Virus record (IMG/VR): IMGVR_UViG_3300043313_001192
Location: 89,598-153,597 of that record
Strand: one strand, 5' to 3'
DNA from: a virus
Taxonomy: Duplodnaviria > Heunggongvirae > Uroviricota > Caudoviricetes
DNA: 64,000 nt
A model generated the notes under the pieces. That model did not search any database. It was given only the letters and a program-made list of their open reading frames with translations, and was not told where the DNA came from. Each line of letters opens with the position of its first letter. Within the stretch, counting starts at the first letter, position 1. Both the position numbers and the translations under genes were made by a program. This document shows positions 2,623 through 37,034 of the stretch, piece after piece.

Positions 2623-3011
2623 GGCGAACCAGAGTTGGTCACGTCGAGGACGCAGAGCACGTCACCCTTGGCCACGGTGCGGACGTCACCGTTGGGGAAG
2701 GTCATCTCCAGGTCCCAGATCCCCTTGAACTCCGACCCGGTGCCCAGGTCGGGCAGCTTGGCAGTCTCGGTCGGTGGCAGGGTGAGGATCACCGCGCTGG
2801 TGGCGTAGAGAGGATCAGGATCGGGCGCGGAGATGAAAGTGGCCGCCACCGTGCGGTCGGAGAGCGTGGCGATCTCGGCCTGGAACTCGTAGTCGGTCAG
2901 GGGCAGCGCTCCAGCGTCCTCCGGGTCGACCACCCGGACCCGGATCCGGAAGGTGTCTCCGGCCACGAAGGAGATGTCGACCACATCAGGGAGCTGACTC
3001 AGGGTTGCCAT
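2619..3011 (-). CDS. hypothetical protein (130 aa)
   Basis: ORF MATLSQLPDVVDISFVAGDTF...; normal composition; the stop overlaps the next start (ATGA). Confidence 0.55.
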   Translation of the reverse strand: MATLSQLPDVVDISFVAGDTFRIRVRVVDPEDAGALPLTDYEFQAEIATLSDRTVAATFISAPDPDPLYATSAVILTLPPTETAKLPDLGTGSEFKGIWDLEMTFPNGDVRTVAKGDVLCVLDVTNSGSP

Positions 3012-3026
3012 TTCGTCACGTCCTTC

Positions 3027-4190
3027 TCATCGCCACACGGCGGGTGTTTCGGGGAAGCTGTAGTTCCACCTGACCCACAGCTTCAGTTGCCAGTCAGCGT
3101 CGGGACTGGTGCCCGCCGAGGCTCTGGCGGAACGAAGGACGCAGTAGCCGTTGTGGCCGGTGGTGTTGTTGCCCGAGGCGGTGCCGTTGTAGATCAGCAT
3201 CCCGGTGTGGGCCGGTGCAGGCTTGAGCCATTCGGTGGCCCAGGTCTCCAGCTTGGAGATGTCCACCTCGTCCTTGGCTTTGCCGATGGCCGGTGCCGTG
3301 AACGTGGTTCCCGCTGCTGCCCCACCTACGATGCCGGGGCCTGCAGTCGAGCTGAAGTTGATCTTGCAGGGGTAGACGTGGACGGTCACGGTGGCCGCGC
3401 CACCACCCTTGCGGACGATCTGGTCGATCTTGGCGTCGGTCACCACGACCTTGCTGAGCAGGGTGGTGAGTTCGGCAGGAGTCAGGTCGGGGTTCAGCGC
3501 ATCGAGCCTGTCGGAAAGCTGACGACGAGCAGTCGAGTAGGAGACGACACCGCGGCCGTTCAATCCGGAGGTGCGGTAGTACCCCTGGATGACGTCTGGT
3601 CCGTGGCTCTTGGCTCCCCAGTGGTAGCTGCTGGTCCAGGTGTCGGTCTGGGCGGCGTCGATCAGGTACAGATCGGACTTCCCTGTCGTGCCGTAGCTGG
3701 GATTCTTCTTGGGCAACGGTGGGTGCCCGGTGTACAGCGTGATCGCGTTGGACGGGGTCTGGCTGATGATCTCGGTGTTGTCCACTGCAGTGCGCTTGGC
3801 CTGGACCGTGAAGGTGTACTCGGTGCCTGGATCCAGGCCGGTGACGTCCCAGAAGTTCTGCGCGGTCCACTCATTCTCGTTGGGCTTGTAGAACGTGGTC
3901 CCGAACGCGTCCGCGCCCGCCTTCTTGGGCTTGACCATGACCCGGTAGTGGGTGGCCTGTGCAGGCGGGTCCCAGGCGATCGTGCAGCTGGCGTGGTCCT
4001 GCTTGACACCGCGCAGGTTGGTCGGCGGTCGCTGGTAGCGGTCGTGGGCCACCTTCAAGACCATGTCGGCCTGGCCAGGCACCTTCTGCCACGTCTGGGC
4101 CAGGAGTACTTCTCTCCAGGCCCCTTGCTTGAAGGTGTAGATCTTGTTGACGGGCTTCACCAGTCCGGCCGTGATGACGTAGATCACCAT
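3027..4190 (-). CDS. fibronectin-III-like domain protein, possible fibre/minor tail-associated
   Basis: 387 aa; FN3-like segment (WDPPAQATHYRVMVKPKK...TEYTFTVQAKR); lies directly upstream of the collagen-like gene. Confidence 0.5.
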   Translation of the reverse strand: MVIYVITAGLVKPVNKIYTFKQGAWREVLLAQTWQKVPGQADMVLKVAHDRYQRPPTNLRGVKQDHASCTIAWDPPAQATHYRVMVKPKKAGADAFGTTFYKPNENEWTAQNFWDVTGLDPGTEYTFTVQAKRTAVDNTEIISQTPSNAITLYTGHPPLPKKNPSYGTTGKSDLYLIDAAQTDTWTSSYHWGAKSHGPDVIQGYYRTSGLNGRGVVSYSTARRQLSDRLDALNPDLTPAELTTLLSKVVVTDAKIDQIVRKGGGAATVTVHVYPCKINFSSTAGPGIVGGAAAGTTFTAPAIGKAKDEVDISKLETWATEWLKPAPAHTGMLIYNGTASGNNTTGHNGYCVLRSARASAGTSPDADWQLKLWVRWNYSFPETPAVWR

Positions 4191-14966: not shown

Positions 14967-15274
14967 CGAATCGCCGTCCCGTTGTAGCCGTACTTGATCA
15001 GGGCACACGTCTGGCTGTGCGGCGCCCGCTTCTGGAACTCAGCTGACTTGTCCCGGTGCTGGCAGGTGCAGCGCTCCCGCTCGCCCTTCGGCATCAGCGG
15101 GTGCAGCCGACGCACCGGGCAGGCGTCGTCGCTCTGCCGGTGCACTGAAGACGGGTTCCCGCAGTTGACACAGAACGGCCCGGCGATGATCTCGCCGTCA
15201 CCGAAGATGAGCATGCTGGGGGACTTGCGCGGCACGAAGATCCGGTCGGGCAGCGGCAACTCGGACTTGGGCAT
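14963..15274 (-). CDS. Cys-rich zinc-finger-like protein (103 aa)
   Basis: FCVNCGNPSSVHRQSDDACPVRR...CTCQH Cys clusters; ATGA overlap with the helicase stop. Confidence 0.45.
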   Translation of the reverse strand: MPKSELPLPDRIFVPRKSPSMLIFGDGEIIAGPFCVNCGNPSSVHRQSDDACPVRRLHPLMPKGERERCTCQHRDKSAEFQKRAPHSQTCALIKYGYNGTAIR

Positions 15275-17244
15275 CAGAGCGGCTCCCCGGTCAGGAACTT
15301 CCGCATCAGGGCCTCGTCGTGCACGATCTCCTCCAACATGTCGCGCTTGCGGTCAAGCGAGACGAGCTGGGCCATCTCCACGGTGCCGGGCGTGACGTAG
15401 TCGATCTTGGTGATCGACTCGTGCTCCTCCGAGCCGATCCGGTGTGCGCGGGCGATCGCCTGGTCCATCTCGACGGGGCTCCAGTTGCGCTGGATGAACA
15501 CCTCGACCGATGCCTTGGTCAGCGTGATCCCGGTGCCGCCCGCCTTGATGGTGGACAGCACGTACTGGAAGTCGCCGCGCTGGAAGTCGTCGATGGCCCG
15601 GTTGCGGGCCTCCTCGTCGATCGCGCCGGTGATCATCCCGTGCCGGATCGGTCCGCCCTTGTTGGCCGGGTTCTTGTGCAGCCGCTCGGAGAGCATCTCG
15701 ATCAGCTGCCGGGACTCGGCGAAGACCAGCACGGACTGGCCGTCGAAGTCGCCTATGTCACCCATGAACGCGTCCAGCTTCGAGGACGGGTTCTGCAGAA
15801 ACAGGTGCTCCTCGTCGCGCATGATCGGCTCGCCGGTGTAGGCGTCGACCAGCTTCTCGCCAGCGCTCACCATCGGCATCCCGGTGTCCGGGTCGGTGCT
15901 GTGCTTGGCGCCCCAGTACTTCCACTTGCCGGTCTCCGGATCGACGGGCACCAGGTGGGTGGACTTGGCCGTCATCTGGACCTTGACGATCCGCAGGTCA
16001 CCGTGGGAGGAGGCCAGCTGCATCAGCCGAGCCACCTGCACCATCGGGTTCGCAGCCAGCAGCACCCCGGCGTCGAGCTTGGCGATCATCAGGTCGCGCA
16101 TCTGCTCGTAGCTCTTCTTCTGGGTCGGGTTCATCTCCACGTCGCGCTGCTCGGGCACGATCGGTGGCAGGAACGGGAGCACCAGCTCCTTGGTCATCCG
16201 GCGCAGGTGCGGGTCGACGCCAGCGTGGAACTCCACGTCGTGGGTGGGCTTGATCCCGTTGACCTCCATCCCGCCCCAGATGTTGTAGGTGAAGCTGATC
16301 AGCCGCTCCACCCAGGCGCTCTTCGCGGGCCACTCCAGGCCGTCGATCCAGTGCAGGACCGGCCACAGCTCGGTGGGGTCGTTGGCGATCGGGGTGCCGG
16401 TCATCGCGAACCGGATCTCGGTGTCCCCCGACGCGGCCCACAGCGCGCGGGTCTGCATCGAGTGCGGGTCCTTGGCCCGGTGCGCCTCGTCGGCGACCAC
16501 CGCGGCGAAGTCGATCTCGTTCAGCTCGCGTTCGTGCACCTCGCACTGGGCCTGCTTGACGGTGCCGGAGCCGCCGCACTCGACGCACTTCTTCAGTGCG
16601 TGCGAGCCGAAGGCCAGCAGCCGGGAGTGGCTGCGCAGCCCCTCCCAGTTGATGATCACGAACGTGGCACCCGAGCGGATCTTCTTGCGGCGCTGCTCGG
16701 CGGATCCGGAGATCACCGCGACCTCCACCTCGGGGTCGCCCCACCAGATCCCCAGCTCGCGCTCCCAGGTCCGCTTCATCGTGTTTGGACAAACGACCAG
16801 AATCTGGCCGTCGAGCTGTCCGGCGTCCTTGAGCTTGCGCAGCGCGAGGATCGCCTGGATCGTCTTGCCGGTGCCCATCTCGTCGGCCAGCAGCGCCCGC
16901 TTGACCAGCGCCAGGAACTCCACACCGGCTCGCTGGTAGGGGTAGAGCCGCTCGTCACCCTCCAGCCCGGCCCCCATCGACTCGCGCAGGTGCATCGCCG
17001 GGTCGATCACGTCGCGCTTGCGCGCCCACGCCCACTTCGAGAGGTCGTCGCCGACCTCCAGGTCGTCGCCGAAGACGTCGCGCATCGCCAGGCACGAGGT
17101 CCAGGCCAGCGGCACCGACCACTTGTTGTCGTCCTTGGACCACCGTGCGCCGGGCAGGGTGCGGACCAGATCCTTGGCGGTGTAGGGGGAGGCGATGATG
17201 ATTCGGTCACCCCGACGGGGGTGGACATCGGCCTCGATCCGCAT
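15274..17244 (-). CDS. SNF2/RAD54-family DEAD-like helicase
   Basis: 656 aa; Walker A LADEMGTGKTIQ; DEAH box VVADEAHRAKD; helicase C-terminal block (LVFAESRQL...TGAIDEE...GGTGITLT). Confidence 0.85.
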   Translation of the reverse strand: MRIEADVHPRRGDRIIIASPYTAKDLVRTLPGARWSKDDNKWSVPLAWTSCLAMRDVFGDDLEVGDDLSKWAWARKRDVIDPAMHLRESMGAGLEGDERLYPYQRAGVEFLALVKRALLADEMGTGKTIQAILALRKLKDAGQLDGQILVVCPNTMKRTWERELGIWWGDPEVEVAVISGSAEQRRKKIRSGATFVIINWEGLRSHSRLLAFGSHALKKCVECGGSGTVKQAQCEVHERELNEIDFAAVVADEAHRAKDPHSMQTRALWAASGDTEIRFAMTGTPIANDPTELWPVLHWIDGLEWPAKSAWVERLISFTYNIWGGMEVNGIKPTHDVEFHAGVDPHLRRMTKELVLPFLPPIVPEQRDVEMNPTQKKSYEQMRDLMIAKLDAGVLLAANPMVQVARLMQLASSHGDLRIVKVQMTAKSTHLVPVDPETGKWKYWGAKHSTDPDTGMPMVSAGEKLVDAYTGEPIMRDEEHLFLQNPSSKLDAFMGDIGDFDGQSVLVFAESRQLIEMLSERLHKNPANKGGPIRHGMITGAIDEEARNRAIDDFQRGDFQYVLSTIKAGGTGITLTKASVEVFIQRNWSPVEMDQAIARAHRIGSEEHESITKIDYVTPGTVEMAQLVSLDRKRDMLEEIVHDEALMRKFLTGEPL

Positions 17245-18544: not shown

Positions 18545-19504
18545 CTACAACTGCTGCTGGACCAGGAACCGCTCCAGCTCTTCCAGCTGATCTTGCGTCT
18601 CGACCCACACCTCCTGGGCGCGTAGACCCGCCATCGCGGCGTACGCCGCGTAGACGCCTGGGTCTGAGAGCGCGGTGATCGCCTCGGCCCAGTGCGTCGG
18701 GCGCTCGGGGTCGCGGAAGAGACCCGCGTAGCTGAGCGACTCCTGCAGACCTGGGGTGGGGCTGGCGATGACCGGGATGTTCGAGGAGGCAGCCTCCACG
18801 CCCACCCGTCCCCAGGACTCATACTTGCTGGGCACCAGCAAGATCCGGGTGCGGGCATAGATCTCTCCGGCCGGGTCGTCGGTGGGCGCGATCACCTCGA
18901 CGTTGCTCGGAACCACCTTCGGAATGCCCTGGTCCCCGTAGCCACCCTGCACGGCCAGGAAGCGGGTCTCGGGCAGCAGTCGGGCCACCTCCCACAGCAG
19001 CTTCCCGTTCTTGAACAGGTTGATCTGGGTCACCAGCGAGTCCTGTCGATGGACGGCGTAGTGGACGGGGCTCACCGGCGGGTAGACCACCTGGCGGGGC
19101 AGCTCTGGCCTGATGCGGGCACACTCCTCACCCAGCCACTGGGAGTTGAAGATGAGCCCGGTGAGAGTCCTGGCCCGCCGCACCACGATCTTGGTCATCC
19201 GCATGTCGTTGTGCAGCACGGACACGATCGGCAGGTCCAGCTTCCGCGCCGCGATCATCGCCACCGAGGTGACGTCGTGATGGGTCAGCAGCACGTCGGC
19301 ACCCTTCGCCGCGTCCACGATGTCAGTGCTGTAGATGTGCGGGATCGAGCTGAGCGGAGGGTCCCCGTCGGTCTCGTCCGGGTGCGGAATGACCACCGCG
19401 ACGGTGTGCCCGCGCTGATCGAGATGGGTGAGTATCGCCTGGAGCATCTGCTCCGAGCCCGCAGGGTCTGTCGTCGGACGGTGCAGGATGGCCGTGATGT
19501 TCAT
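18545..19504 (-). CDS. GT1 (GT4-like) glycosyltransferase
   Basis: 319 aa; C-terminal ...ILLVPSKYESWGRVGVEAASSNIPVIASPTPGLQE matches the GT-B E-X7-E / PVI motif. Confidence 0.65.
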   Translation of the reverse strand: MNITAILHRPTTDPAGSEQMLQAILTHLDQRGHTVAVVIPHPDETDGDPPLSSIPHIYSTDIVDAAKGADVLLTHHDVTSVAMIAARKLDLPIVSVLHNDMRMTKIVVRRARTLTGLIFNSQWLGEECARIRPELPRQVVYPPVSPVHYAVHRQDSLVTQINLFKNGKLLWEVARLLPETRFLAVQGGYGDQGIPKVVPSNVEVIAPTDDPAGEIYARTRILLVPSKYESWGRVGVEAASSNIPVIASPTPGLQESLSYAGLFRDPERPTHWAEAITALSDPGVYAAYAAMAGLRAQEVWVETQDQLEELERFLVQQQL

Positions 19505-20435: not shown

Positions 20436-22103
20436 TCAGCTCTCCCAGGGCCAGTCCTGCGTGGCCCCCAGCTCGATCTGCGGGATCAGCCCCCAGCTCT
20501 GGTCGGTCAGACCGCCGAAGCTGTGTCGGGTCGGCCCCGACTCACCGTGGGCCGCACGGTAGCCCGCGACGTTCCAGGTGTAGCAGAACACGTCGTCCGG
20601 CAGGAGCGAGTCGATCGACCCACCGAGCCGGTCGTAGGCCGCCTGCTCGTCGGTGACGATGATGACCCGCTTGTGCTCGCCCGCCCGGAAGTGGTCGCGC
20701 ACCGCCTGCATCGTGGCCGTGCCACCCATCGAGACGAACTTGCCCATGTGGTCCAGCACACCCTTCGACCGGTCGACCTTGATCACCGACGAGCCCGTGC
20801 CGTACTGCACCAGCGTCGGGTTCTCGGCCCGCAGCGCCAGCGCCGAGGCGAACAGCGCCGCCTGCTCGTAGGGGAACGTCTTGCCCCGCTCCGAGCCGCC
20901 CCAGGGCCACATCGACCCGGACATGTCGGCCAGGATCAGCGAGCCGCCGTCCAGCACCGGCACGTTCGCCAGCGAGTACTGCAGCCCCGCGCTGAGCGAC
21001 TTCGCCCAGTGGTTGCCCTCGGTGGCCTTGAACGCGGAGTAGAACCGGAACGGGAACTGCCGCGACCGTGCCACCTCGTCGGAGTCGGCCAGCACCGCCT
21101 TGACGTGCTTGACCACGTCGGGAGCGATCTTGGCCTCGTCGAAGTTGCGCAGGTTGCGGAGCAGGGCCATGTAGCCCATCCCGTGCTGGATGAACAGCTT
21201 CCACTGGTCGGCCTCGGACACGCGATCGAACGTGCGGTCCTCGGTGTTCTCACCCAGCCAGGACTTGCCCCACTCCCACTGACCCGCGAGGGCCTGCAGC
21301 CAGCGGAACTCGGCGTCCGGCTCACCGGCGAGCACCTGCCGCACGAACGCGTGCCGCTCAGCGATCGCCAGCTCGTTCAGCGCCAGCCGGTTGGTGATGG
21401 CCTTGAGCATCACCAGGTCCGCCTCGGGGGTCTCCCGACGTGCGTGACGCCGGTCGAGCAGCCAGCCGAACAGCGCCGACTGCTCCGGCCCCTTGGGGGT
21501 CGGGTGGGTCAGCTCGACCACGTCACCCAGACGCATCGCGCCCCGGTTGCCGTCGTAGCGCAGCGCCGCACGCTGGTTGAAGACCTTGCGCGCAGCATCA
21601 GCCACGCCTCGCTTCACCGGCATCGGCAGGTTGCGCCCGTACCGGGTCTGCCAGTAGGCGATGAACTCGCCGGGCTCGTCAGCACGCAGGATCGCTGCCG
21701 AGATCACCTGCCGGTTGAGCCCAGGCGCGAGCGGGGCCGTGAGGCGCTCGCCCTTCTCAGGTGCCTCGGAGACACCGGCGTCCAGGCGGGCCTTGACGAA
21801 CTCGGCCGCGACCAGGATCGAGACCGAGCGCATGTTGGCCTTGGCCCGCAGCCACTCGACGAAGTTGCGCACCCACTGCGGGTCTTCGAGCGTGACCCGC
21901 TTGACCAGCTCGCGAAGTCGATTCTCGCGATCACTGGGGGACTCGTAGAACGTCGGCTCCAGCGTGGTGGACACGGCGCTCAGGTACAGCTCCGCCTGGG
22001 GCTCGCGTGCGAACCCGGTCCCTCCCTCGTGGGTCGCGACCTTCTCGCCCGTGGTGCCGAGCAGTGCTCCCCGGCCCTTCGTGGTGCCTGCGAACTTCGC
22101 CAT
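20436..22103 (-). CDS. rsr: Ro60-like TROVE-domain RNA-binding protein with C-terminal vWA (Rsr-like)
   Basis: 555 aa; N-terminal ...HEGGTGFAREPQAELYLSAVSTTLEPTFYE (Ro60 'GG..F / TFYE' signature); C-terminal vWA with MIDAS LILADMSGSMW (DxSxS); RBS GAGGAG before the ATG at 22103. Confidence 0.75.
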   Translation of the reverse strand: MAKFAGTTKGRGALLGTTGEKVATHEGGTGFAREPQAELYLSAVSTTLEPTFYESPSDRENRLRELVKRVTLEDPQWVRNFVEWLRAKANMRSVSILVAAEFVKARLDAGVSEAPEKGERLTAPLAPGLNRQVISAAILRADEPGEFIAYWQTRYGRNLPMPVKRGVADAARKVFNQRAALRYDGNRGAMRLGDVVELTHPTPKGPEQSALFGWLLDRRHARRETPEADLVMLKAITNRLALNELAIAERHAFVRQVLAGEPDAEFRWLQALAGQWEWGKSWLGENTEDRTFDRVSEADQWKLFIQHGMGYMALLRNLRNFDEAKIAPDVVKHVKAVLADSDEVARSRQFPFRFYSAFKATEGNHWAKSLSAGLQYSLANVPVLDGGSLILADMSGSMWPWGGSERGKTFPYEQAALFASALALRAENPTLVQYGTGSSVIKVDRSKGVLDHMGKFVSMGGTATMQAVRDHFRAGEHKRVIIVTDEQAAYDRLGGSIDSLLPDDVFCYTWNVAGYRAAHGESGPTRHSFGGLTDQSWGLIPQIELGATQDWPWES

Positions 22104-22142
22104 GACTGCTCCTCTCGTTGTCGTGTGTCTTGGCGTGCAAAA

Positions 22143-22218
22143 GGCGGCTGAGTACAGGTATGCAGTGGGGTGGTTTCAGTTTGCAGATGAAGTAACCCAC
22201 CACTTCGCAGCAGCCGCC
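22143..22218 (-). ncRNA. long imperfect hairpin closed by an 8-bp stem and followed by UUUUG (terminator-like or Y-RNA-like stem)
   Basis: Minus strand GGCGGCTG-(60 nt including the inner stem AGTGGTGGGTT.../...AACCACCCCACT)-CAGCCGCC-TTTTG, ending 35 nt upstream of the rsr start codon. Confidence 0.3.
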
Positions 22219-22998
22219 AAAAAGTGAGTGCCGAGAACATGTCGATGCAACTGACGTAGATGCTCTGCCGATTGAGCTACAGCCGCCACGTGGGGCGGCT
22301 GCTGGGACTCGAACCCAGAACCCTCTCCTCCAGATGGAAGTAAGTCGCGTCTTCGCATCGGCACTCAAGATCTTTAGTTGTAGGTGTGCTGAGAACAAAG
22401 CCAGATCACGCAAATCCGCGACCGTCCGGTTATCGAGCCGAGTGTCCACGGGTCATGCGGTGGTTTGGTGCATGAAGGATCGCGATCTTTCGCATCAGCA
22501 CACTGTTCAGTTGTTGTGATAACGAGTGCTGAGAACGTGGTCGAACCAGGACCACGGCGCTCTACCAGCTGAGCTACAGGAACCTTGCGGCCCTGACGGG
22601 ACTCGAACCCGCGACCACCCGATTAACAGTCGAAGGAGCCCGATTCTGCGCAACAGCGCTCGAACTTTGGATGTGCTGAGAACAAGAAGATCCACGAGAT
22701 GTTGCAGCTAACCCCGCTTGCACGGGTGCCACCTCGCCAATGTGGCCTCAGCCGTCCCAGGATGACTAGTCCAGTGACGACCGACAGGAGTCGAACCTGT
22801 GATTTCCGAAGGAACGCGAATCCGCGCATCAGCACATAACACTGTTTAGTTGGTAAGTGCACCGAGAACATGTAGACGCAGGCGTTGGCCCGTTGAAAGG
22901 CCGCGCGAGGGACATTGAACCTCAACGCCTTTTCCGAAGTAACCCGCAGCAATCGCATCGGTGCACACTGTGAAGTTGTCCGAGTAGCGGCCGAGAAC
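22213..22998 (-). repeat. array of 6 non-coding units (130-185 bp), each ending in a conserved GTTCTC(A/G)GCAC box, containing tRNA-like arms
   Basis: Plus-strand gtgc(t/c)gagaac occurs at ~22228, 22386, 22527, 22673, 22857 and 22987, preceded by TTyAGTTG-like sequence. Minus-strand D-arm consensus GTAGCTCAATCGGCAGAGC (22262-22287) and GTAGCTCAGCTGGTAGAGC (22559-22584). T-arm-like GGTTCGAGTCC / GGTTCGACTCC / GGTTCAATGTCC at 22303-22319, 22596-22612, 22786-22802 and 22906-22922. No full cloverleaf could be folded by eye. Confidence 0.5.
22587..22634 (-). ncRNA. tRNA-like 3' portion (GTT anticodon-like stem-loop + T-arm + acceptor-like strand) abutting a 5' acceptor + D-arm segment
   Basis: Minus: TTCGA-CTGTTAA-TCGGG (7-nt loop, U33, GUU, A37), TGGTC, GCGGG-TTCGAGT-CCCGT, CAGGGCC-G, immediately followed by GGTTCCTG-TAGCTCAGCTGGTAGAGC. 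No matching 5' acceptor lies upstream, so either a permuted/split tRNA, a degenerate tRNA or a Y-RNA-like tRNA mimic. Confidence 0.3.
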
Positions 22999-23375
22999 CC
23001 AGAGGCGCCGGTGCAGGAGCTGTTCGCTGAATGAAGGATCCCGCGTGGCTTCGCAACGGCCACCGTTGCTCAGGAGGACGACACTACACAGCCTGCACAG
23101 CCACGTCACCTGGTTTACCGAGAAGTTTCCAGGTTGGGGAGTCTAGACATGCCAGCACGGAGTTGACACGATGGTGGGCAACGCCGCCGTCCCGGTTACC
23201 CCCCGTACCTGGGCGGCGGCGTCTCCACGCTCAGGGGTCGGTGAAGAGCCGGACATTTACCGCGACCACGTCGCGCCAGCTCTGCACGCAGCTGCACTCG
23301 CTGCAGCCGTCATCAGCGTGGTAGGGGCTGGTGTGCCCGCACCACGGGCACCTCATCGAGTGGAACGGCAGGGAG

Positions 23376-24173
23376 TCACGTCCAGGACGAGACCGTCGGG
23401 CTTCCTTCGATGCAGGCATTCTTGATCCGATCGACGTAAGCCAGGACGTTGCGCGGAACCGAGCCTGGCGGTGTGTACATCTCCGGAGCACCTGCGGCCA
23501 GCCACCGTTTGGCTCCGGTGATGCCGAGGTTGTAGCTGACGATCGCATGGTCGAGGTTGCCGTCCAGGCGGTCCATCGCGTTGAGCAGGTAGCTGATGAT
23601 GAAGTTGAAGGAGAACGTCGGGCTCAGTCGCTCCCGCTCGCTCATGTCCGGGTGGGCCTCGCCGTTGATCTGGGCGAGCCCGATGTCCACCGGCTTGATG
23701 TAGCCGACCGCGCCAGGGTCCCACGCCGACTCGTTCTGGACCACTCCACAGACCACTTCCCACTGCTCGATCCCGCGCTTGTGACACAGCGCCTGCAGCT
23801 CGGGCAGCCACAGTGCCTTGGCGGTGTACGGCCCGATCCCGCCCCAGCTGTCCTGGCCGATGGTGCGCCGGAACCGGCTGGCTGCAGCAGCCGTGGGACG
23901 GTCGAAGGTGCCGTTGATGTCCAGCTTGATCTTCAGCCTGCGGTTCAGCGCCCGCTGGATGGCCAGCACGGCGCCGTGCACGGCCCGCTCGTTGCCGTCC
24001 TTGGACTTCCAGCCCCCGGAGCCCACCAGCGGCATCCCAGAGGCTGCCAGGCAGTAGTAGCGCCCCGACGTCTTGCCGTTCCACTCCAGGGTGCCGCCAC
24101 CCCCGGCCTTGGGCCAGGCGGCTCGGCCGCGCGGTCCCGCCGGTGCCCCTGGTGGCGGCGTGCGCTCGCTCAT
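23376..24173 (-). CDS. endolysin: peptidoglycan-binding domain + lytic transglycosylase (SLT) domain
   Basis: Start judged at MSERTPPPGAP (the upstream 132 codons of ORF 23376..24569 are Arg/Pro run-on). PG_binding_1-like AVLAIQRALNRRLKIKLDINGTFDRPTAAAASRFRRTIG; SLT motifs ...NESAWDPGAVGY...DIGLAQIN...SYNLGITG. Confidence 0.6.
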   Translation of the reverse strand: MSERTPPPGAPAGPRGRAAWPKAGGGGTLEWNGKTSGRYYCLAASGMPLVGSGGWKSKDGNERAVHGAVLAIQRALNRRLKIKLDINGTFDRPTAAAASRFRRTIGQDSWGGIGPYTAKALWLPELQALCHKRGIEQWEVVCGVVQNESAWDPGAVGYIKPVDIGLAQINGEAHPDMSERERLSPTFSFNFIISYLLNAMDRLDGNLDHAIVSYNLGITGAKRWLAAGAPEMYTPPGSVPRNVLAYVDRIKNACIEGSPTVSSWT

Positions 24174-24820
24174 CGGAGCTTCTTCATCCGGGAGATCGCG
24201 GTGGTCTTGGTGTAGCCCATCCGGTCGACCTTGCGCCGCGGCGCCCAGGTCTTGTGCTCCAGGTGTGCGCGCAGCGGCAGGTCGTACATCTGCTGGGTGC
24301 CGTTGAGGCAGCGGGCCATGAAGTCGTGGAAGTTCATCTTCTTGCCGGTCTTGGCGTTGGTGTAGACCCGCGTCCAGTCGATGTTGGCCAGCCCGCCCTC
24401 GAACTCCCAGCCGAAGGCGTACCGGCGCGCGGAGTCTCTGGGGATCGTGTAGGTCTTGGGCTTGGCCACCCCGGACGGCACCACGATCGGACCGCCCTTG
24501 CCGGGGTGGTTGGCGTAGCCCAGGGTGATGATCCGGGCGACCAGGTCGAAGCCGCCGTAGCCGTTGCACAGCGGGCCGGGCAGGTTGTCAGCCGGTCGGC
24601 CGCGCTTGACCAGGGACAGGCACGGGGTCTTGTTCTTGGCGTTGTACCGACTCACCGTGTGATGGGCGAACGAGGCGACCACGAACTGGGAGTTCCACAC
24701 CCCGTACGGGCTGGGTCGTCCCGGCATCACCTCGATGGAGACCTGGGGGACACCGCAGTCCAGCAATGCTGCCCGGAGCTGACGAGCCTCGGCGACAGCG
24801 GAGGCACGCGTGTTCGCCAT
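24170..24820 (-). CDS. putative cell-wall amidase/peptidoglycan hydrolase (Amidase_2/PGRP-like, tentative)
   Basis: 216 aa; SFAHHTVS, GYGGFDLV and AFGWEFEGG blocks resemble Amidase_2 H..T / ..IGIE.EG motifs; ATGA overlap with the transglycosylase gene. Confidence 0.4.
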   Translation of the reverse strand: MANTRASAVAEARQLRAALLDCGVPQVSIEVMPGRPSPYGVWNSQFVVASFAHHTVSRYNAKNKTPCLSLVKRGRPADNLPGPLCNGYGGFDLVARIITLGYANHPGKGGPIVVPSGVAKPKTYTIPRDSARRYAFGWEFEGGLANIDWTRVYTNAKTGKKMNFHDFMARCLNGTQQMYDLPLRAHLEHKTWAPRRKVDRMGYTKTTAISRMKKLR

Positions 24821-36916: not shown

Positions 36917-36938
36917 CTAGCTGTGAACAGAACATGAG

Positions 36939-37034
36939 CTGGCCCAGAAGGAGTCGAACCTTCATCTTCCCCCTGAACAAGGAGGTGCTCTACCGTGGGT
37001 GCTCTGGACAGAGCGCCACTTGAGCTACAGGCCA
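36939..37034 (-). tRNA. non-canonical tRNA-like gene (GUU anticodon-like loop; ~22-nt hairpin insertion in the D-loop)
   Basis: Minus: TGGCCTG-TA-GCTC-AAGTGG[CGCTCTGTCCAGAGCACCCACG]TA-GAGC-A-CCTCC-TTGTTCA-GGGGG-AAGAT-GAAGG-TTCGACT-CCTTC-TGGGCCA-G. Acceptor pairs 7/7 (2 G-U); perfect T-arm; no encoded CCA; position 37 is C. Confidence 0.35.

What the first reader, a model, noticed from the sequence alone, without database searches (positions are those of the whole stretch)
22213..22998. Conserved GTTCTC(A/G)GCAC box repeated six times at ~130-185 bp spacing
Each non-coding unit of the array ends (minus strand) with GTTCTCAGCAC or GTTCTCGGCAC, followed ~6 nt later by CAACTAAA-like sequence. On the plus strand this reads TTyAGTTG...GTGCyGAGAAC, at 22228, 22386, 22527, 22673, 22857 and 22987. 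Such periodic boxes between small RNA genes suggest either unit promoters or shared RNase processing/terminator signals. They are not CRISPR repeats.
Basis: seen in the sequence. Interest (0 to 1): 0.55.

Follow-up and report, generated by a model that had tools for sequence, protein, structure and literature searches.

The report
Ro60-binding stem of phage Y RNAs
The repeated box is the 3' half of the closing stem, and probably of the protein-docking site, of seven tandem Y-RNA-like small RNA genes just upstream of a phage Ro60 (Rsr) gene; this is a known kind of RNA-protein system, here as an unusually large and unannotated array.

Summary
GTTCTC(R)G(Y)CAC occurs six times on the minus strand between 22228 and 22998, and a seventh variant copy (GTACTCAGCCGCC, 22143-22155) was missed. 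The boxes are not promoters, terminators or inter-gene spacers. Each box is the 3' end of a small RNA unit. Its CRGCAC half pairs with a 5' GYGCYG that sits next to an invariant UGCG, and this helix covaries strongly. The array lies directly upstream of a TROVE/Ro60 (Rsr) gene (20436-22103) on the same strand. Two units carry the T-arm/closed-acceptor/D-arm module of YrlA Y RNAs. A covariance model built from one unit type finds full-length homologues upstream of rsr in nearly all of 80 actinobacterial loci and in three known actinophages, and the box core G-N-N-C-U-C is invariant in them. The box is therefore best read as the 3' strand of the Ro60-binding module of Y-RNA-like genes. These are probably cut from one precursor at the G-poor CAACUNAA spacers. 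It is a new member of a known kind. Two features are notable: seven conserved paralogues against one to three in bacteria, and invisibility to Rfam thresholds and phage annotation. Expression and Rsr binding are inferred, not shown.

The parts
23080..23090 (-). Conserved promoter-like element TGTGTAGTGTC (-10-like TAGTGT) upstream of the first unit. It is the only such element in the locus.
   Evidence: Invariant block in the alignment of seven phage loci (A8). Its function is inferred. The consensus promoter scan finds nothing in the region.
22986..23064 (-). Unit Ya (type A, about 79 nt): 5' GGUGGCCG-U-UGCG ... AUCCUUC ... 3' GUUCUC-GGCCGCU.
   Evidence: Orthologues in 6 loci with a consensus fold that pairs the box with the 5' motif (A6).
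22857..22966 (-). Unit Yb (type B, about 110 nt): closing helix GUGCACCG/CGGUGCAC and an effector module with two hairpins. Box at 22857-22869.
   Evidence: Type present in all 7 loci; RNAalifold gives 13 pairs with compensatory changes (A4).
22671..22837 (-). Unit Yc (type C, about 167 nt): contains a T-arm-like hairpin CACAGGUUCGACUCCUGU plus further hairpins. Box at 22673-22683.
   Evidence: Matched by model R1 at 54.4 bits over its full length.
22523..22662 (-). Unit Yd (type D, about 140 nt): YrlA-type tRNA-like module (T arm, closed acceptor-like hairpin, D arm) preceded by an anticodon-arm-like hairpin with loop CUGUUAA. Box at 22526-22536. The ARAGORN call 'tRNA-Asn(gtt)' at 22587-22660 lies inside this unit.
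   Evidence: Rfam YrlA 40.7 bits, E 8e-07, below the gathering score of 69. Rfam tRNA 28.8 bits against a cut-off of 29. A5 consensus fold. R1 83.6 bits.
22384..22503 (-). Unit Ye (type E, about 120 nt): closing helix GUGUGCUG/CAGCACAC; the effector module is the least conserved. Box at 22386-22396.
   Evidence: Clear orthologue only in L009. R1 35.7 bits.
22225..22367 (-). Unit Yf (type F, about 143 nt): canonical YrlA-like RNA with a V-arm hairpin, T arm, 8-bp closed acceptor-like stem and D arm. Box at 22228-22238, followed by UUUUU.
   Evidence: Rfam YrlA 33.4 bits, E 1e-4. A3 consensus fold with 18 compensatory pairs. Seed of model R1.
22143..22218 (-). Unit Yg (type G, about 76 nt): simple long hairpin with 5' GGCGGCUG-C-UGCG, UUACUUC and the variant box GUACUC-AGCCGCC. 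It is followed by CUUUUG and then the rsr ribosome-binding site.
   Evidence: Orthologues in all 7 loci, with canonical GUUCUC in L005 and L008 (A7).
20436..22103 (-). rsr: Ro60/Rsr orthologue (555 aa, TROVE domain and a vWA-type DxSxS motif), the predicted protein partner of the seven RNAs.
   Evidence: Pfam TROVE 6.9e-12. PHROG 850 'RNA-binding protein' 1.3e-39. 36-42% identity to annotated 'Ro-like RNA binding protein' genes of actinophages. PDB match to Thermus phage phiLo Ro60, 9L5Y/9KOP, E 1.3e-19. D393/S395/S397 invariant in A2.

Best explanation
The box is the 3' strand of the Ro60/Rsr-binding module of Y-RNA-like (YrlA-type) small RNAs. Seven such genes (Ya-Yg, 23064-22143, minus strand) lie head to tail directly upstream of a phage rsr gene.

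Shown by sequence and comparison: in each unit the 3' C-R-G-C-A-C of the box pairs with a 5' G-Y-G-C-Y-G to form an 8-10 bp closing helix that covaries freely. Directly above that helix sit bases that do not vary: 5' (N)UGCG opposite 3' G-U-N-C-U-C. These are predicted to form an asymmetric internal loop plus a G.U/C-G/G.U mini-helix. A second invariant element, UACUU(C), follows a middle stem.

Inferred: the invariant loop with its flanking helix is the docking site for the Rsr ring, as in Y RNAs generally. The seven units are transcribed from one promoter-like element upstream of Ya, together with rsr, as in M. smegmatis. Host RNases cut them apart in the 9-24 nt G-poor CAACUNAA spacers. Each mature RNA then presents a different effector module (tRNA-like in Yd and Yf, T-loop hairpins in Yb and Yc, plain hairpins in Ya and Yg). 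These modules would tether or gate phage Rsr towards different partners such as PNPase.
For: 1. Position: the array ends about 40 nt upstream of a TROVE/Ro60 gene on the same strand.
2. YrlA similarity: Rfam YrlA is the best RNA-family match for Yd and Yf (E 8e-07 and 1e-4) and for two units in each of six related phage loci. Full-length alignments show the same layout as the Rfam consensus, 5' ...CgaAUGC...CUAc ... 3' ...cUuGucG....
3. Covariation in the phage clade: 44 curated units from the window and six related contigs (Rsr 58-75% identical) were anchored only on the two motifs. 92.4% of cells pair, against 26-52% when the partner is slid. 8 of 9 helix pairs show compensatory changes. 106 cells are changed on both sides, against 37.5 in shuffles (0 of 500 shuffles reach it). 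G12, U14, G15, C16, G17 and G33, C36, C38 are invariant.
4. Independent fold: RNAalifold, run separately on five orthologous unit types, predicts the same box-to-5'-motif pairing each time.
5. Wider homology: model R1, built from type F only, gives 110 hits with E<1e-3, all on the rsr strand. They include one or two full-length hits (45-109 bits) 100-550 nt upstream of rsr in nearly all of 80 actinobacterial loci, and hits in phages VanLee, BRock and Atuin. In 81 homologues not used for training, the box core G180, C184, U185, C186 and the 5' GGUGCG are 97-100% conserved, while 8 of 10 closing-helix pairs covary.
6. Age of the units: unit types and their order are conserved across the phage clade, so the units are old, distinct genes rather than a recent duplication.
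7. Literature: Y RNAs carry the Ro60 site in the stem formed by their 5' and 3' ends. YrlA RNAs lie within 4 kb of rsr on the same strand. M. smegmatis YrlA and YrlB lie upstream of rsr and are processed from one precursor (PMC4201824). Thermus phage phiLo Ro60 binds two Y-like RNAs encoded upstream of its gene (PMC12135203).
Against: There are no expression, end-mapping or binding data; transcription, processing and Rsr binding are all inferred. No unit reaches the Rfam YrlA gathering score (40.7 and 33.4 bits against 69). The 5' motif is GNYG(N)UGCG, not the published GNCGAAN0-1G. Five of the seven units lack the tRNA-like module that defines YrlA. Published structural work says Ro60 contacts mainly the 5' strand and that the 3' strand is not recognisable in Salmonella or M. 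smegmatis YrlA (PMC4201824). Known contacts therefore do not explain the strict invariance of the 3' G-N-N-C-U-C, which could instead reflect an RNA tertiary motif or an RNase determinant. Alignment A9 is fitted to the model, which inflates its pairing counts.
Confidence: 0.85

Rival explanations
1. The boxes, with or without the CAACTAAA element, are unit promoters, so each small RNA gene is transcribed on its own.
For: The boxes are periodic. TTCTCA/TTCTCG matches TTGACA at 4 of 6 positions. Several spacers contain NAGTGT, which resembles the TAGTGT of the upstream promoter-like element.
Against: The consensus scan finds no promoter-like site on either strand of 21900-23500. The distance from the box to the NAGTGT element varies from about 13 to 24 nt, which does not fit a fixed -35/-10 geometry. 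NAGTGT overlaps the 5' strand of the covarying helix, so a start 6-8 nt downstream would remove half of a helix that is clearly under selection at the RNA level. The real promoter-like element upstream of Ya has no GTTCTC at its -35 position.
Confidence: 0.03
2. The box and closing helix are mainly an RNase processing or 3'-end stabilising or terminator signal shared by unrelated small RNAs, and are not a protein-docking site for Rsr.
For: Every unit ends at the box. The helix would block 3' exonucleases. The last two units are followed by U-runs. The published view is that Ro60 reads mainly the 5' strand (PMC4201824), which leaves the invariant 3' bases unexplained.
Against: Only one terminator-like site is found in the region, and it is not at a box. 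Five of seven boxes have no U-run. A pure end-protecting hairpin needs no invariant bases, yet UGCG and G-N-N-C-U-C are invariant across 44 phage units and 81 actinobacterial homologues while the neighbouring helix drifts. The element is found only next to rsr and always on its strand. The two roles are not exclusive: Rsr binding could itself define the mature ends.
Confidence: 0.08
3. The region is a tRNA gene or pseudogene array, and the box is a conserved tRNA-spacer element as in actinophage tRNA clusters.
For: ARAGORN calls a tRNA-Asn(gtt) at 22587-22660. T-arm motifs GGUUCGA occur four times. In BRock and Atuin the Ro-like gene sits among genuine tRNA genes.
Against: ARAGORN finds only that one call in the array. 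It scores 28.8 bits against the Rfam tRNA cut-off of 29 and overlaps a better YrlA match. No Rfam family reaches its threshold anywhere in the window. In the tRNA-like units the order of arms is T arm, closed 'acceptor', D arm. That is a permuted layout typical of YrlA, with no free acceptor end. Genuine tRNAs in BRock and Atuin score 42-74 bits.
Confidence: 0.02
4. The repeats are a neutral remnant of recent tandem duplication (or a dispersed repeat such as REP or MITE) with no function of their own.
For: Six to seven similar boxes lie in 900 nt. Metagenome assemblies often break at this array (L001, L004).
Against: Units within one genome are far more diverged from each other than from their positional orthologues in phages whose Rsr is only 58-75% identical. 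The helix keeps pairing through compensatory changes. The motif pair occurs nowhere else in the 64 kb window.
Confidence: 0.02

Closest known systems
YrlA / YrlB Y RNA-like RNAs of bacteria and mycobacteriophages (Rfam RF02553; Chen et al. 2014, PMC4201824), especially M. smegmatis YrlA and YrlB
   Same: Encoded next to rsr on the same strand and, as in M. smegmatis, upstream of it with more than one RNA per locus. The long stem is formed by the 5' and 3' ends, with a conserved 5' motif close to GNCGAA(N)G. Yd and Yf have a tRNA-like T arm, closed acceptor and D arm. A conserved UA-containing CUAC/UACUUC element is present. At least one unit is a plain long hairpin like YrlB (Ya, Yg).
   Different: Seven units instead of two. 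Scores are below the Rfam gathering threshold. The 5' motif is GNYG(N)UGCG. The 3' strand is strongly conserved (G-U-N-C-U-C), whereas it was reported as unrecognisable in Salmonella and M. smegmatis. Type D carries an extra anticodon-arm-like hairpin. Types B, C and E have effector modules not described for YrlA or YrlB.
Thermus phage phiLo Ro60 with Yrl1/Yrl2 (PMC12135203; PDB 9KOP, 9L5Y)
   Same: A phage-encoded Ro60 with Y-like RNAs encoded just upstream of its gene. It is the only solved structure matched by this Rsr at the sequence level (E 1.3e-19). Binding and formation of a RYPER-like complex with host PNPase were shown there in vitro.
   Different: Two RNAs against seven. They were identified through a CGAA motif, and no GUUCUC-type 3' box was reported. 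The protein is distant (about 25% identity by tblastn). The host phylum differs.
Metazoan Y RNAs and D. radiodurans Yrn1/Yrn2
   Same: Modular design: a closing stem carrying the Ro60 site plus a variable effector loop or module, with several paralogues per genome. Both strands of the binding helix are conserved, as here.
   Different: No detectable sequence homology. The metazoan site is a bulged helix, GGUCCGA over UUGACU, with a bulged C. Here the helix GYGCYG/CRGCRC is continuous and the conserved asymmetry lies just above it.
Unannotated or mis-annotated Y-like RNAs of known actinophages (Gordonia phage VanLee, Streptomyces phage BRock, Arthrobacter phage Atuin)
   Same: Model R1 hits at 67-89 bits beside their 'Ro-like RNA binding protein' genes. 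BRock has at least 4 units with GAUGCG, UACUUC and a variant 3' box CUUUUUCUA. VanLee has at least 3-4 units with GAUCCC/GACCCC boxes.
   Different: The Rsr proteins are only 36-42% identical. The box sequences differ. The arrays there are shorter, and in BRock and Atuin they are embedded in genuine tRNA clusters.

Membership tests
YrlA-type bacterial/phage Y RNA | Encoded within 4 kb of a Ro60/Rsr (TROVE) gene on the same strand (criterion of Chen et al. 2014) | tested here: met
   All seven units lie 40-960 nt upstream of the TROVE gene 20436-22103 on the minus strand. The same arrangement holds in six related phage loci and in 80 actinobacterial loci.
YrlA-type bacterial/phage Y RNA | Long stem formed by pairing of the RNA's 5' and 3' ends, which carries the Ro60 site | tested here: met
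   Closing helix with 8 of 9 covarying pairs in 44 units and 8 of 10 in 81 independent homologues. RNAalifold predicts it de novo in five unit types.
YrlA-type bacterial/phage Y RNA | 5' motif GNCGAAN0-1G (putative Rsr recognition) | tested here: inconclusive
   The units have G-C-Y-G-(A/U/G/C)-U-G-C-G. The best case, GCCGAUG, differs from GNCGAAG at one position, and U replaces the second A in all 44 units. The Rfam consensus cggCgaAUGCuu aligns to it with a one-base shift (my alignment).
YrlA-type bacterial/phage Y RNA | tRNA-like effector module: T arm, closed acceptor-like stem-loop, D arm | tested here: met
   Met for Yd and Yf. Not met for Ya, Yb, Yc, Ye and Yg, which resemble YrlB-type or other Y RNAs that share only the stem module.
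YrlA-type bacterial/phage Y RNA | Rfam RF02553 gathering score (69 bits) | tested here: not met
   40.7 and 33.4 bits. No family reaches its threshold anywhere in the window. The chromosomal Streptomyces/Kitasatospora homologues also fail it, so the threshold excludes this whole actinobacterial branch.
YrlA-type bacterial/phage Y RNA | Physically bound by Rsr/Ro60 in vivo or in vitro | not testable with these tools
   Needs RIP/CLIP or gel-shift assays.
Ro60/Rsr protein (partner) | TROVE HEAT-repeat domain followed by a vWA domain with a MIDAS DxSxS motif | tested here: met
   Pfam TROVE 45.7 bits against a cut-off of 23. D393, S395 and S397 are invariant in 25 homologues. Some homologues carry PF13519 VWA_2. 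The ring fold was not modelled.
tRNA gene array | Cloverleaf with a free acceptor stem that reaches the tRNA model threshold | tested here: not met
   One ARAGORN call in the array. Rfam tRNA 28.8 bits against 29. The arms are in permuted order.
Sigma-70-type promoter at each box | -35 and -10 hexamers at 16-18 nt spacing upstream of each unit | tested here: not met
   0 sites in 21900-23500. The distance from the box to the -10-like element is variable.
Intrinsic terminator at each box | GC-rich hairpin immediately followed by a U-run | tested here: not met
   The only terminator-like site lies inside Ye, not at a box. U-runs follow only Yf and Yg.
CRISPR array | Near-identical direct repeats of 24-48 nt separated by unique spacers of similar length | tested here: not met
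   The shared element is 11-13 nt. The intervals are 129-186 nt, structured, and conserved between genomes.

The most novel reading that the evidence does not exclude
The phage clade carries an expanded, fixed 'toolkit' of seven different Y RNAs that share one Rsr-docking module, of which the box is part, but display seven different effector modules. One of these is a tRNA mimic with an anticodon-arm-like hairpin (loop CU-NNN-AA). A single phage Ro60 ring could then be re-targeted to several host factors during infection: PNPase and other RNases, tRNA-modifying enzymes, or anticodon nucleases of host defence. The strictly invariant 3' G-N-N-C-U-C would be a previously unrecognised second recognition strand of the actinobacterial Ro60 site.
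Probability: 0.2. Interest if true: 0.7.

Novelty: new member of a known kind. Interest (0 to 1): 0.4.

Why it matters
The finding turns an anonymous 'repeat box' into a specific, testable RNA-protein interface: 5' G-N-U-G-C-G opposite 3' G-U-N-C-U-C on top of a covarying helix.

It also shows that Rfam thresholds and current actinophage annotation miss Y-RNA genes. One of them is annotated as a tRNA in phage VanLee, and ARAGORN calls another a tRNA here.

Finally, it documents a phage lineage with seven conserved Y-RNA paralogues beside its Ro60 gene, against one to three in the bacterial loci examined. What Ro60 does for a phage is still open, and the only experimental work is in vitro on Thermus phage phiLo. 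A set of seven RNAs with one common handle and different heads is a convenient system for asking which host factors a viral Ro60 is steered towards.

Tried and rejected
- blastn of the array against 50,697 phage records matched only the 80-nt tRNA-like core, in distant phages. This was not useful for homologues, though the Xanthomonas phage hits also lie beside TROVE genes.
- The Rfam gathering-threshold scan of the window returned nothing. The same scan on 20 bacterial rsr loci returned only one tRNA.
- ARAGORN gave one call in the array, rejected as a tRNA.
- The promoter/terminator consensus scan found nothing relevant.
- A permissive stem scanner of my own (any G..C.C box, 7 of 8 pairs) gave 40 hits in the window against about 26 in random sequence, so it was too loose. 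Tightening it to G..C[TC]C with the first four pairs required gave 5-7 units per phage locus and 0 on the opposite strand.
- The search for related loci with the single protein found one viral contig cut off at the gene (L001) and nothing in genome contigs. The alignment-based rescan worked.
- P0008's contig could not be fetched, and L004 starts at the gene.
- The supplementary tables of Chen et al. and two Wolin-lab reviews are not held. I therefore could not check how many YrlA genes per phage were reported before.
- I considered RNase III excision of the units and set it aside: the closing helices are only 8-10 + 3 bp, shorter than the roughly 20 bp that RNase III needs (my own knowledge, not tested).
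- I considered a match of the spacers to the mycobacterial RNase E preference (cleavage 5' of C, from memory). Only the CAACUUCA-type spacers fit, so I make no claim.
Full report
OBSERVATION. Exact 11-mers lie at 22228, 22386, 22526 and 22673. A copy with two extra bases (GTGCACCGAGAAC) lies at 22857, and a degenerate copy (GCGGCCGAGAAC) at 22987. All exact matches in the 64 kb window are in this stretch. The five one-mismatch matches elsewhere equal the shuffle expectation (9 found in all, 3.3 expected). GAGAAC alone occurs 16 times on the plus strand, six of them here. The CAACTNAA element is present after four boxes, at variable distance.

THE NEIGHBOUR THAT EXPLAINS IT. All genes here are on the minus strand. 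The ORF immediately downstream of the array (20436-22103, 555 aa, start preceded by GAGAGGAG) is a TROVE-domain protein (Pfam 6.9e-12; PHROG 850 'RNA-binding protein' 1.3e-39). It is 36-42% identical to proteins annotated 'Ro-like RNA binding protein' in Gordonia, Streptomyces and Arthrobacter phages. It matches the solved Ro60 of Thermus phage phiLo. It keeps a DxSxS MIDAS-type motif that is invariant in 25 homologues. The window is phage DNA, with a tape measure protein, minor tail protein, endolysins, DNA polymerase and helicase. A 93%-identical Rsr lies on an IMG/VR viral contig. A permissive Rfam scan of 21000-24500 gives YrlA (Y RNA-like, RF02553) as the best hits, at 22556-22619 (40.7 bits, E 8e-07) and 22257-22326 (33.4 bits, E 1e-4). 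Both cover the T arm, closed-acceptor and D arm core. ARAGORN's 'tRNA-Asn' at 22587-22660 overlaps the first hit and scores 28.8 bits, just under the tRNA cut-off.

ANATOMY OF A UNIT. On the minus strand every unit starts with G-Y-G-C-Y-G-(N)-U-G-C-G. About 12 nt further on it has (U/C)(A/C)CUUC, and it ends with G-U-U-C-U-C-R-G-C-R-C. Single-sequence folds close each unit by pairing GUGCYGA with UCRGCAC. There are seven units, not six: Ya 23064-22986, Yb 22966-22857, Yc 22837-22671, Yd 22662-22523, Ye 22503-22384, Yf 22367-22225 and Yg 22218-22143. The last carries the variant box GUACUCAGCCGCC.

RELATIVES. Protein search found Rsr homologues at 93, 75, 72, 67, 60 and 59% identity in metagenomes. 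Six contigs with DNA (L002, L005-L009) all show a gene-free gap of 700-1280 nt upstream of the TROVE gene. L002 and L009 also show the SLT-lysin and glycosyltransferase neighbours seen in the window. The gaps hold 5-8 units with the same two motifs.

COVARIATION. I anchored 44 units on the motifs only, joined 20 nt of the 5' arm to 24 nt of the 3' arm, and counted pairs (A1). 92.4% of cells are standard pairs, against 26-52% when the 3' partner is slid by 1-3 columns. 8 of 9 closing-helix pairs have compensatory changes, for example GUGAGCCG/CGGCUCAC, GAUCGCUG/CGGCGAUC and GGUGCGUG/CACGCGCU. 106 cells are changed on both sides, against 37.5 +/- 4.8 in shuffles (0 of 500 reach it). By contrast G12, U14, G15, C16, G17 and G33, C36, C38 never vary.

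GUUCU is one side of an invariant internal loop and mini-helix. C-R-G-C-A-C is a helix strand whose sequence is free as long as it pairs.

UNIT TYPES. Clustering the unit interiors shows that each unit has positional orthologues: type B and type F in all seven loci, types D and G in six, A in five, C in four. RNAalifold run on types F, B, D, A and G separately predicts in every case the closing helix, the G.U/C-G/G.U triplet (UGCG against YGU), a covarying middle stem and a type-specific effector module. Type F has a V-arm hairpin, T arm, an 8-bp closed acceptor-like stem with covariation, and a D arm. Type D is similar but has an anticodon-arm-like hairpin. The array is thus an old set of distinct genes, not a recent duplication.

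LINK TO THE KNOWN FAMILY. Full-length Rfam alignments obtained in L007 and L008 expose the YrlA consensus ends: 5' acggCgaAUGCuuggGgaaCUAc and 3' aAaAcUuGucGccgucuu. The layout is the same: stem-GA|AUGC ... CUAC ... CUUG|UC-stem. Chen et al. [quoted passage not shown] They show that M. smegmatis YrlA and YrlB lie upstream of rsr and come from one precursor. They state that only the 5' strand of the Ro60 site is recognisable in those species.

To test homology directly I built a covariance model from the seven type-F units (R1). I searched the window, three known actinophage loci and 80 actinobacterial rsr loci obtained with a protein-profile scan. There were 110 hits at E<1e-3, every one on the rsr strand. 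They include full-length matches of 45-109 bits 100-550 nt upstream of rsr in nearly all bacterial loci. In the phages, VanLee scores 88.9 bits, BRock 73.2 and Atuin 67.2. Within the window the model also aligns Yd (83.6), Yc (54.4), Ye (35.7) and Yb (29.7) over its full length.

In the 81 best non-training homologues (A9), the 5' GGUGCG, the UACUU element and the box core G180, C184, U185, C186 are 97-100% conserved, while closing-helix pairs switch between A-U/C-G and U-A/G-C. A9 is fitted to the model, so this count leans towards the structure. A1 and the RNAalifold runs are not fitted. None of the bacterial homologues reaches the Rfam gathering score either, so the curated threshold excludes this whole actinobacterial branch.

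WHAT THE BOXES ARE NOT. No sigma-70-like promoter is found on either strand of 21900-23500, and the one terminator-like site is not at a box. One conserved promoter-like block, TGTGTAGTGTC, precedes the first unit in all loci and is not repeated. U-runs follow only Yf and Yg. There is no room for a separate rsr promoter in the roughly 40 nt after Yg, so read-through into rsr is likely (inference). The spacers between closing helices are 9-24 nt, G-poor in a GC-rich genome, and share CAACUNAAYA. That makes them candidate endonuclease sites, but this is untested.

MECHANISM (shown / inferred). Shown: the position next to rsr, the helix, the invariant loop, homology to rsr-linked RNAs across Actinobacteria, and the tRNA-like modules of Yd and Yf. 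Inferred: transcription as one precursor, cleavage in the spacers, docking of Rsr on the invariant loop and helix, and use of the different heads to tether or gate Rsr. The last is by analogy with the RYPER complex of D. radiodurans and the in-vitro phiLo Ro60-Yrl-PNPase complex (PMC4201824, PMC12135203).

HOW UNUSUAL. A tightened motif-pair scanner finds 0-4 units (mode 2) upstream of rsr in 77 bacterial loci, against 0-1 on the control strand. It finds 5-7 in the phage clade, 7 in the window and 0 on their control strands. Seven conserved Y-RNA paralogues beside one Ro60 gene is therefore an expansion. The kind of element, however, is known from bacteria, mycobacteriophages and Thermus phage phiLo.

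VERDICT. The box is the 3' strand of the Ro60-binding stem module of Y-RNA-like genes. It is a new member of a known kind. Interest is moderate, for three reasons: the size of the array, the clear two-strand recognition motif, and the annotation blind spot.

Noticed in passing
window 36936-37033 (minus strand): A second tRNA-like gene. ARAGORN calls it tRNA-Asn(gtt) at 36938-37011, but Rfam tRNA gives only 23.8 bits against a cut-off of 29. The fold is a cloverleaf whose D-loop carries a hairpin insertion of about 23 nt (GCUCUGUCCAGAGC...). The anticodon loop is UUGUUCA, with C at position 37. It has no GUUCUC box and no Ro-type stem.
   Followed up: partly
L010 (Gordonia phage VanLee, NC_073474.1) 2167-2311; annotated tRNA-Arg(tct) at 2171-2242: The GenBank 'tRNA-Arg(tct)' lies inside a full-length match to the Y-RNA model (88.9 bits). 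It gets no Rfam tRNA hit at E<=0.01, and an Rfam YrlA hit overlaps it. It is probably the anticodon-arm-like hairpin plus T arm of a type-D Y RNA, mis-called as a tRNA. ARAGORN makes the same kind of call in the window at 22587-22660.
   Followed up: partly
L011 (Streptomyces phage BRock, KX925554.1) 1920-2500: The unannotated 580-nt gap between tRNA-Asn and the Ro-like gene holds at least four Y-like units with GAUGCG, UACUUC and a lower-GC version of the box (CUUUUUCUA + stem). In BRock and Atuin the Ro gene sits inside a genuine tRNA cluster.
   Followed up: partly
window 22616-22640 (Yd); type-D units of L002, L005-L008; alignment A9: The hairpin after UACUUC often has a 7-nt loop CU-NNN-AA, the pattern of a tRNA anticodon loop, with a variable middle triplet. 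The triplet is GUU in the window and L008; ACU, AGU and UGU in other phage loci; and CUU, GUU, GAU, CAU and others in bacteria. With a T-arm-like hairpin (GUGGUCCUGGUUCGACCAC, 22537-22555) after the D arm of Yd, this looks like the remnants expected under the published 'dimeric tRNA' origin model for YrlA (bioRxiv 10.1101/312249).
   Followed up: partly
L001 (IMG/VR contig end) and L004 (contig start): Two long metagenome contigs (114 kb and 68 kb) break exactly at or just inside the 5' end of the rsr gene, which is where the array would start. The repeated stem modules may fragment assemblies, so such arrays may be under-represented in contig collections.
   Followed up: no
L002 3001-3100: The gene call for the TROVE protein (579 aa) starts about 100 nt too early and runs over the last Y unit (type G, 2981-3058). 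A ribosome-binding site and ATG matching the other homologues lie about 100 nt downstream. Chen et al. describe the same kind of over-extension for the M. smegmatis locus.
   Followed up: partly
L007 2225-2305: A 78-nt 'spacer' between units 4 and 5 contains a degenerate extra unit (GGUGAGUAGCAACUUGCC ... CCUUGUUCCACGC) without the UGCG motif. It is possibly a decaying eighth or ninth copy.
   Followed up: no
window 18545-19504 and 23376-24569; L002 and L009: The array and rsr sit between an SLT-domain lytic transglycosylase and a GT4 glycosyltransferase in the window and L002. L009 keeps the SLT side, and L004 has a related glycosyltransferase downstream of rsr. An SNF2-type helicase lies further on in L002 and L007, and possibly in the window at 15274-17244. 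The linkage of a glycosyltransferase with rsr was not explored.
   Followed up: no
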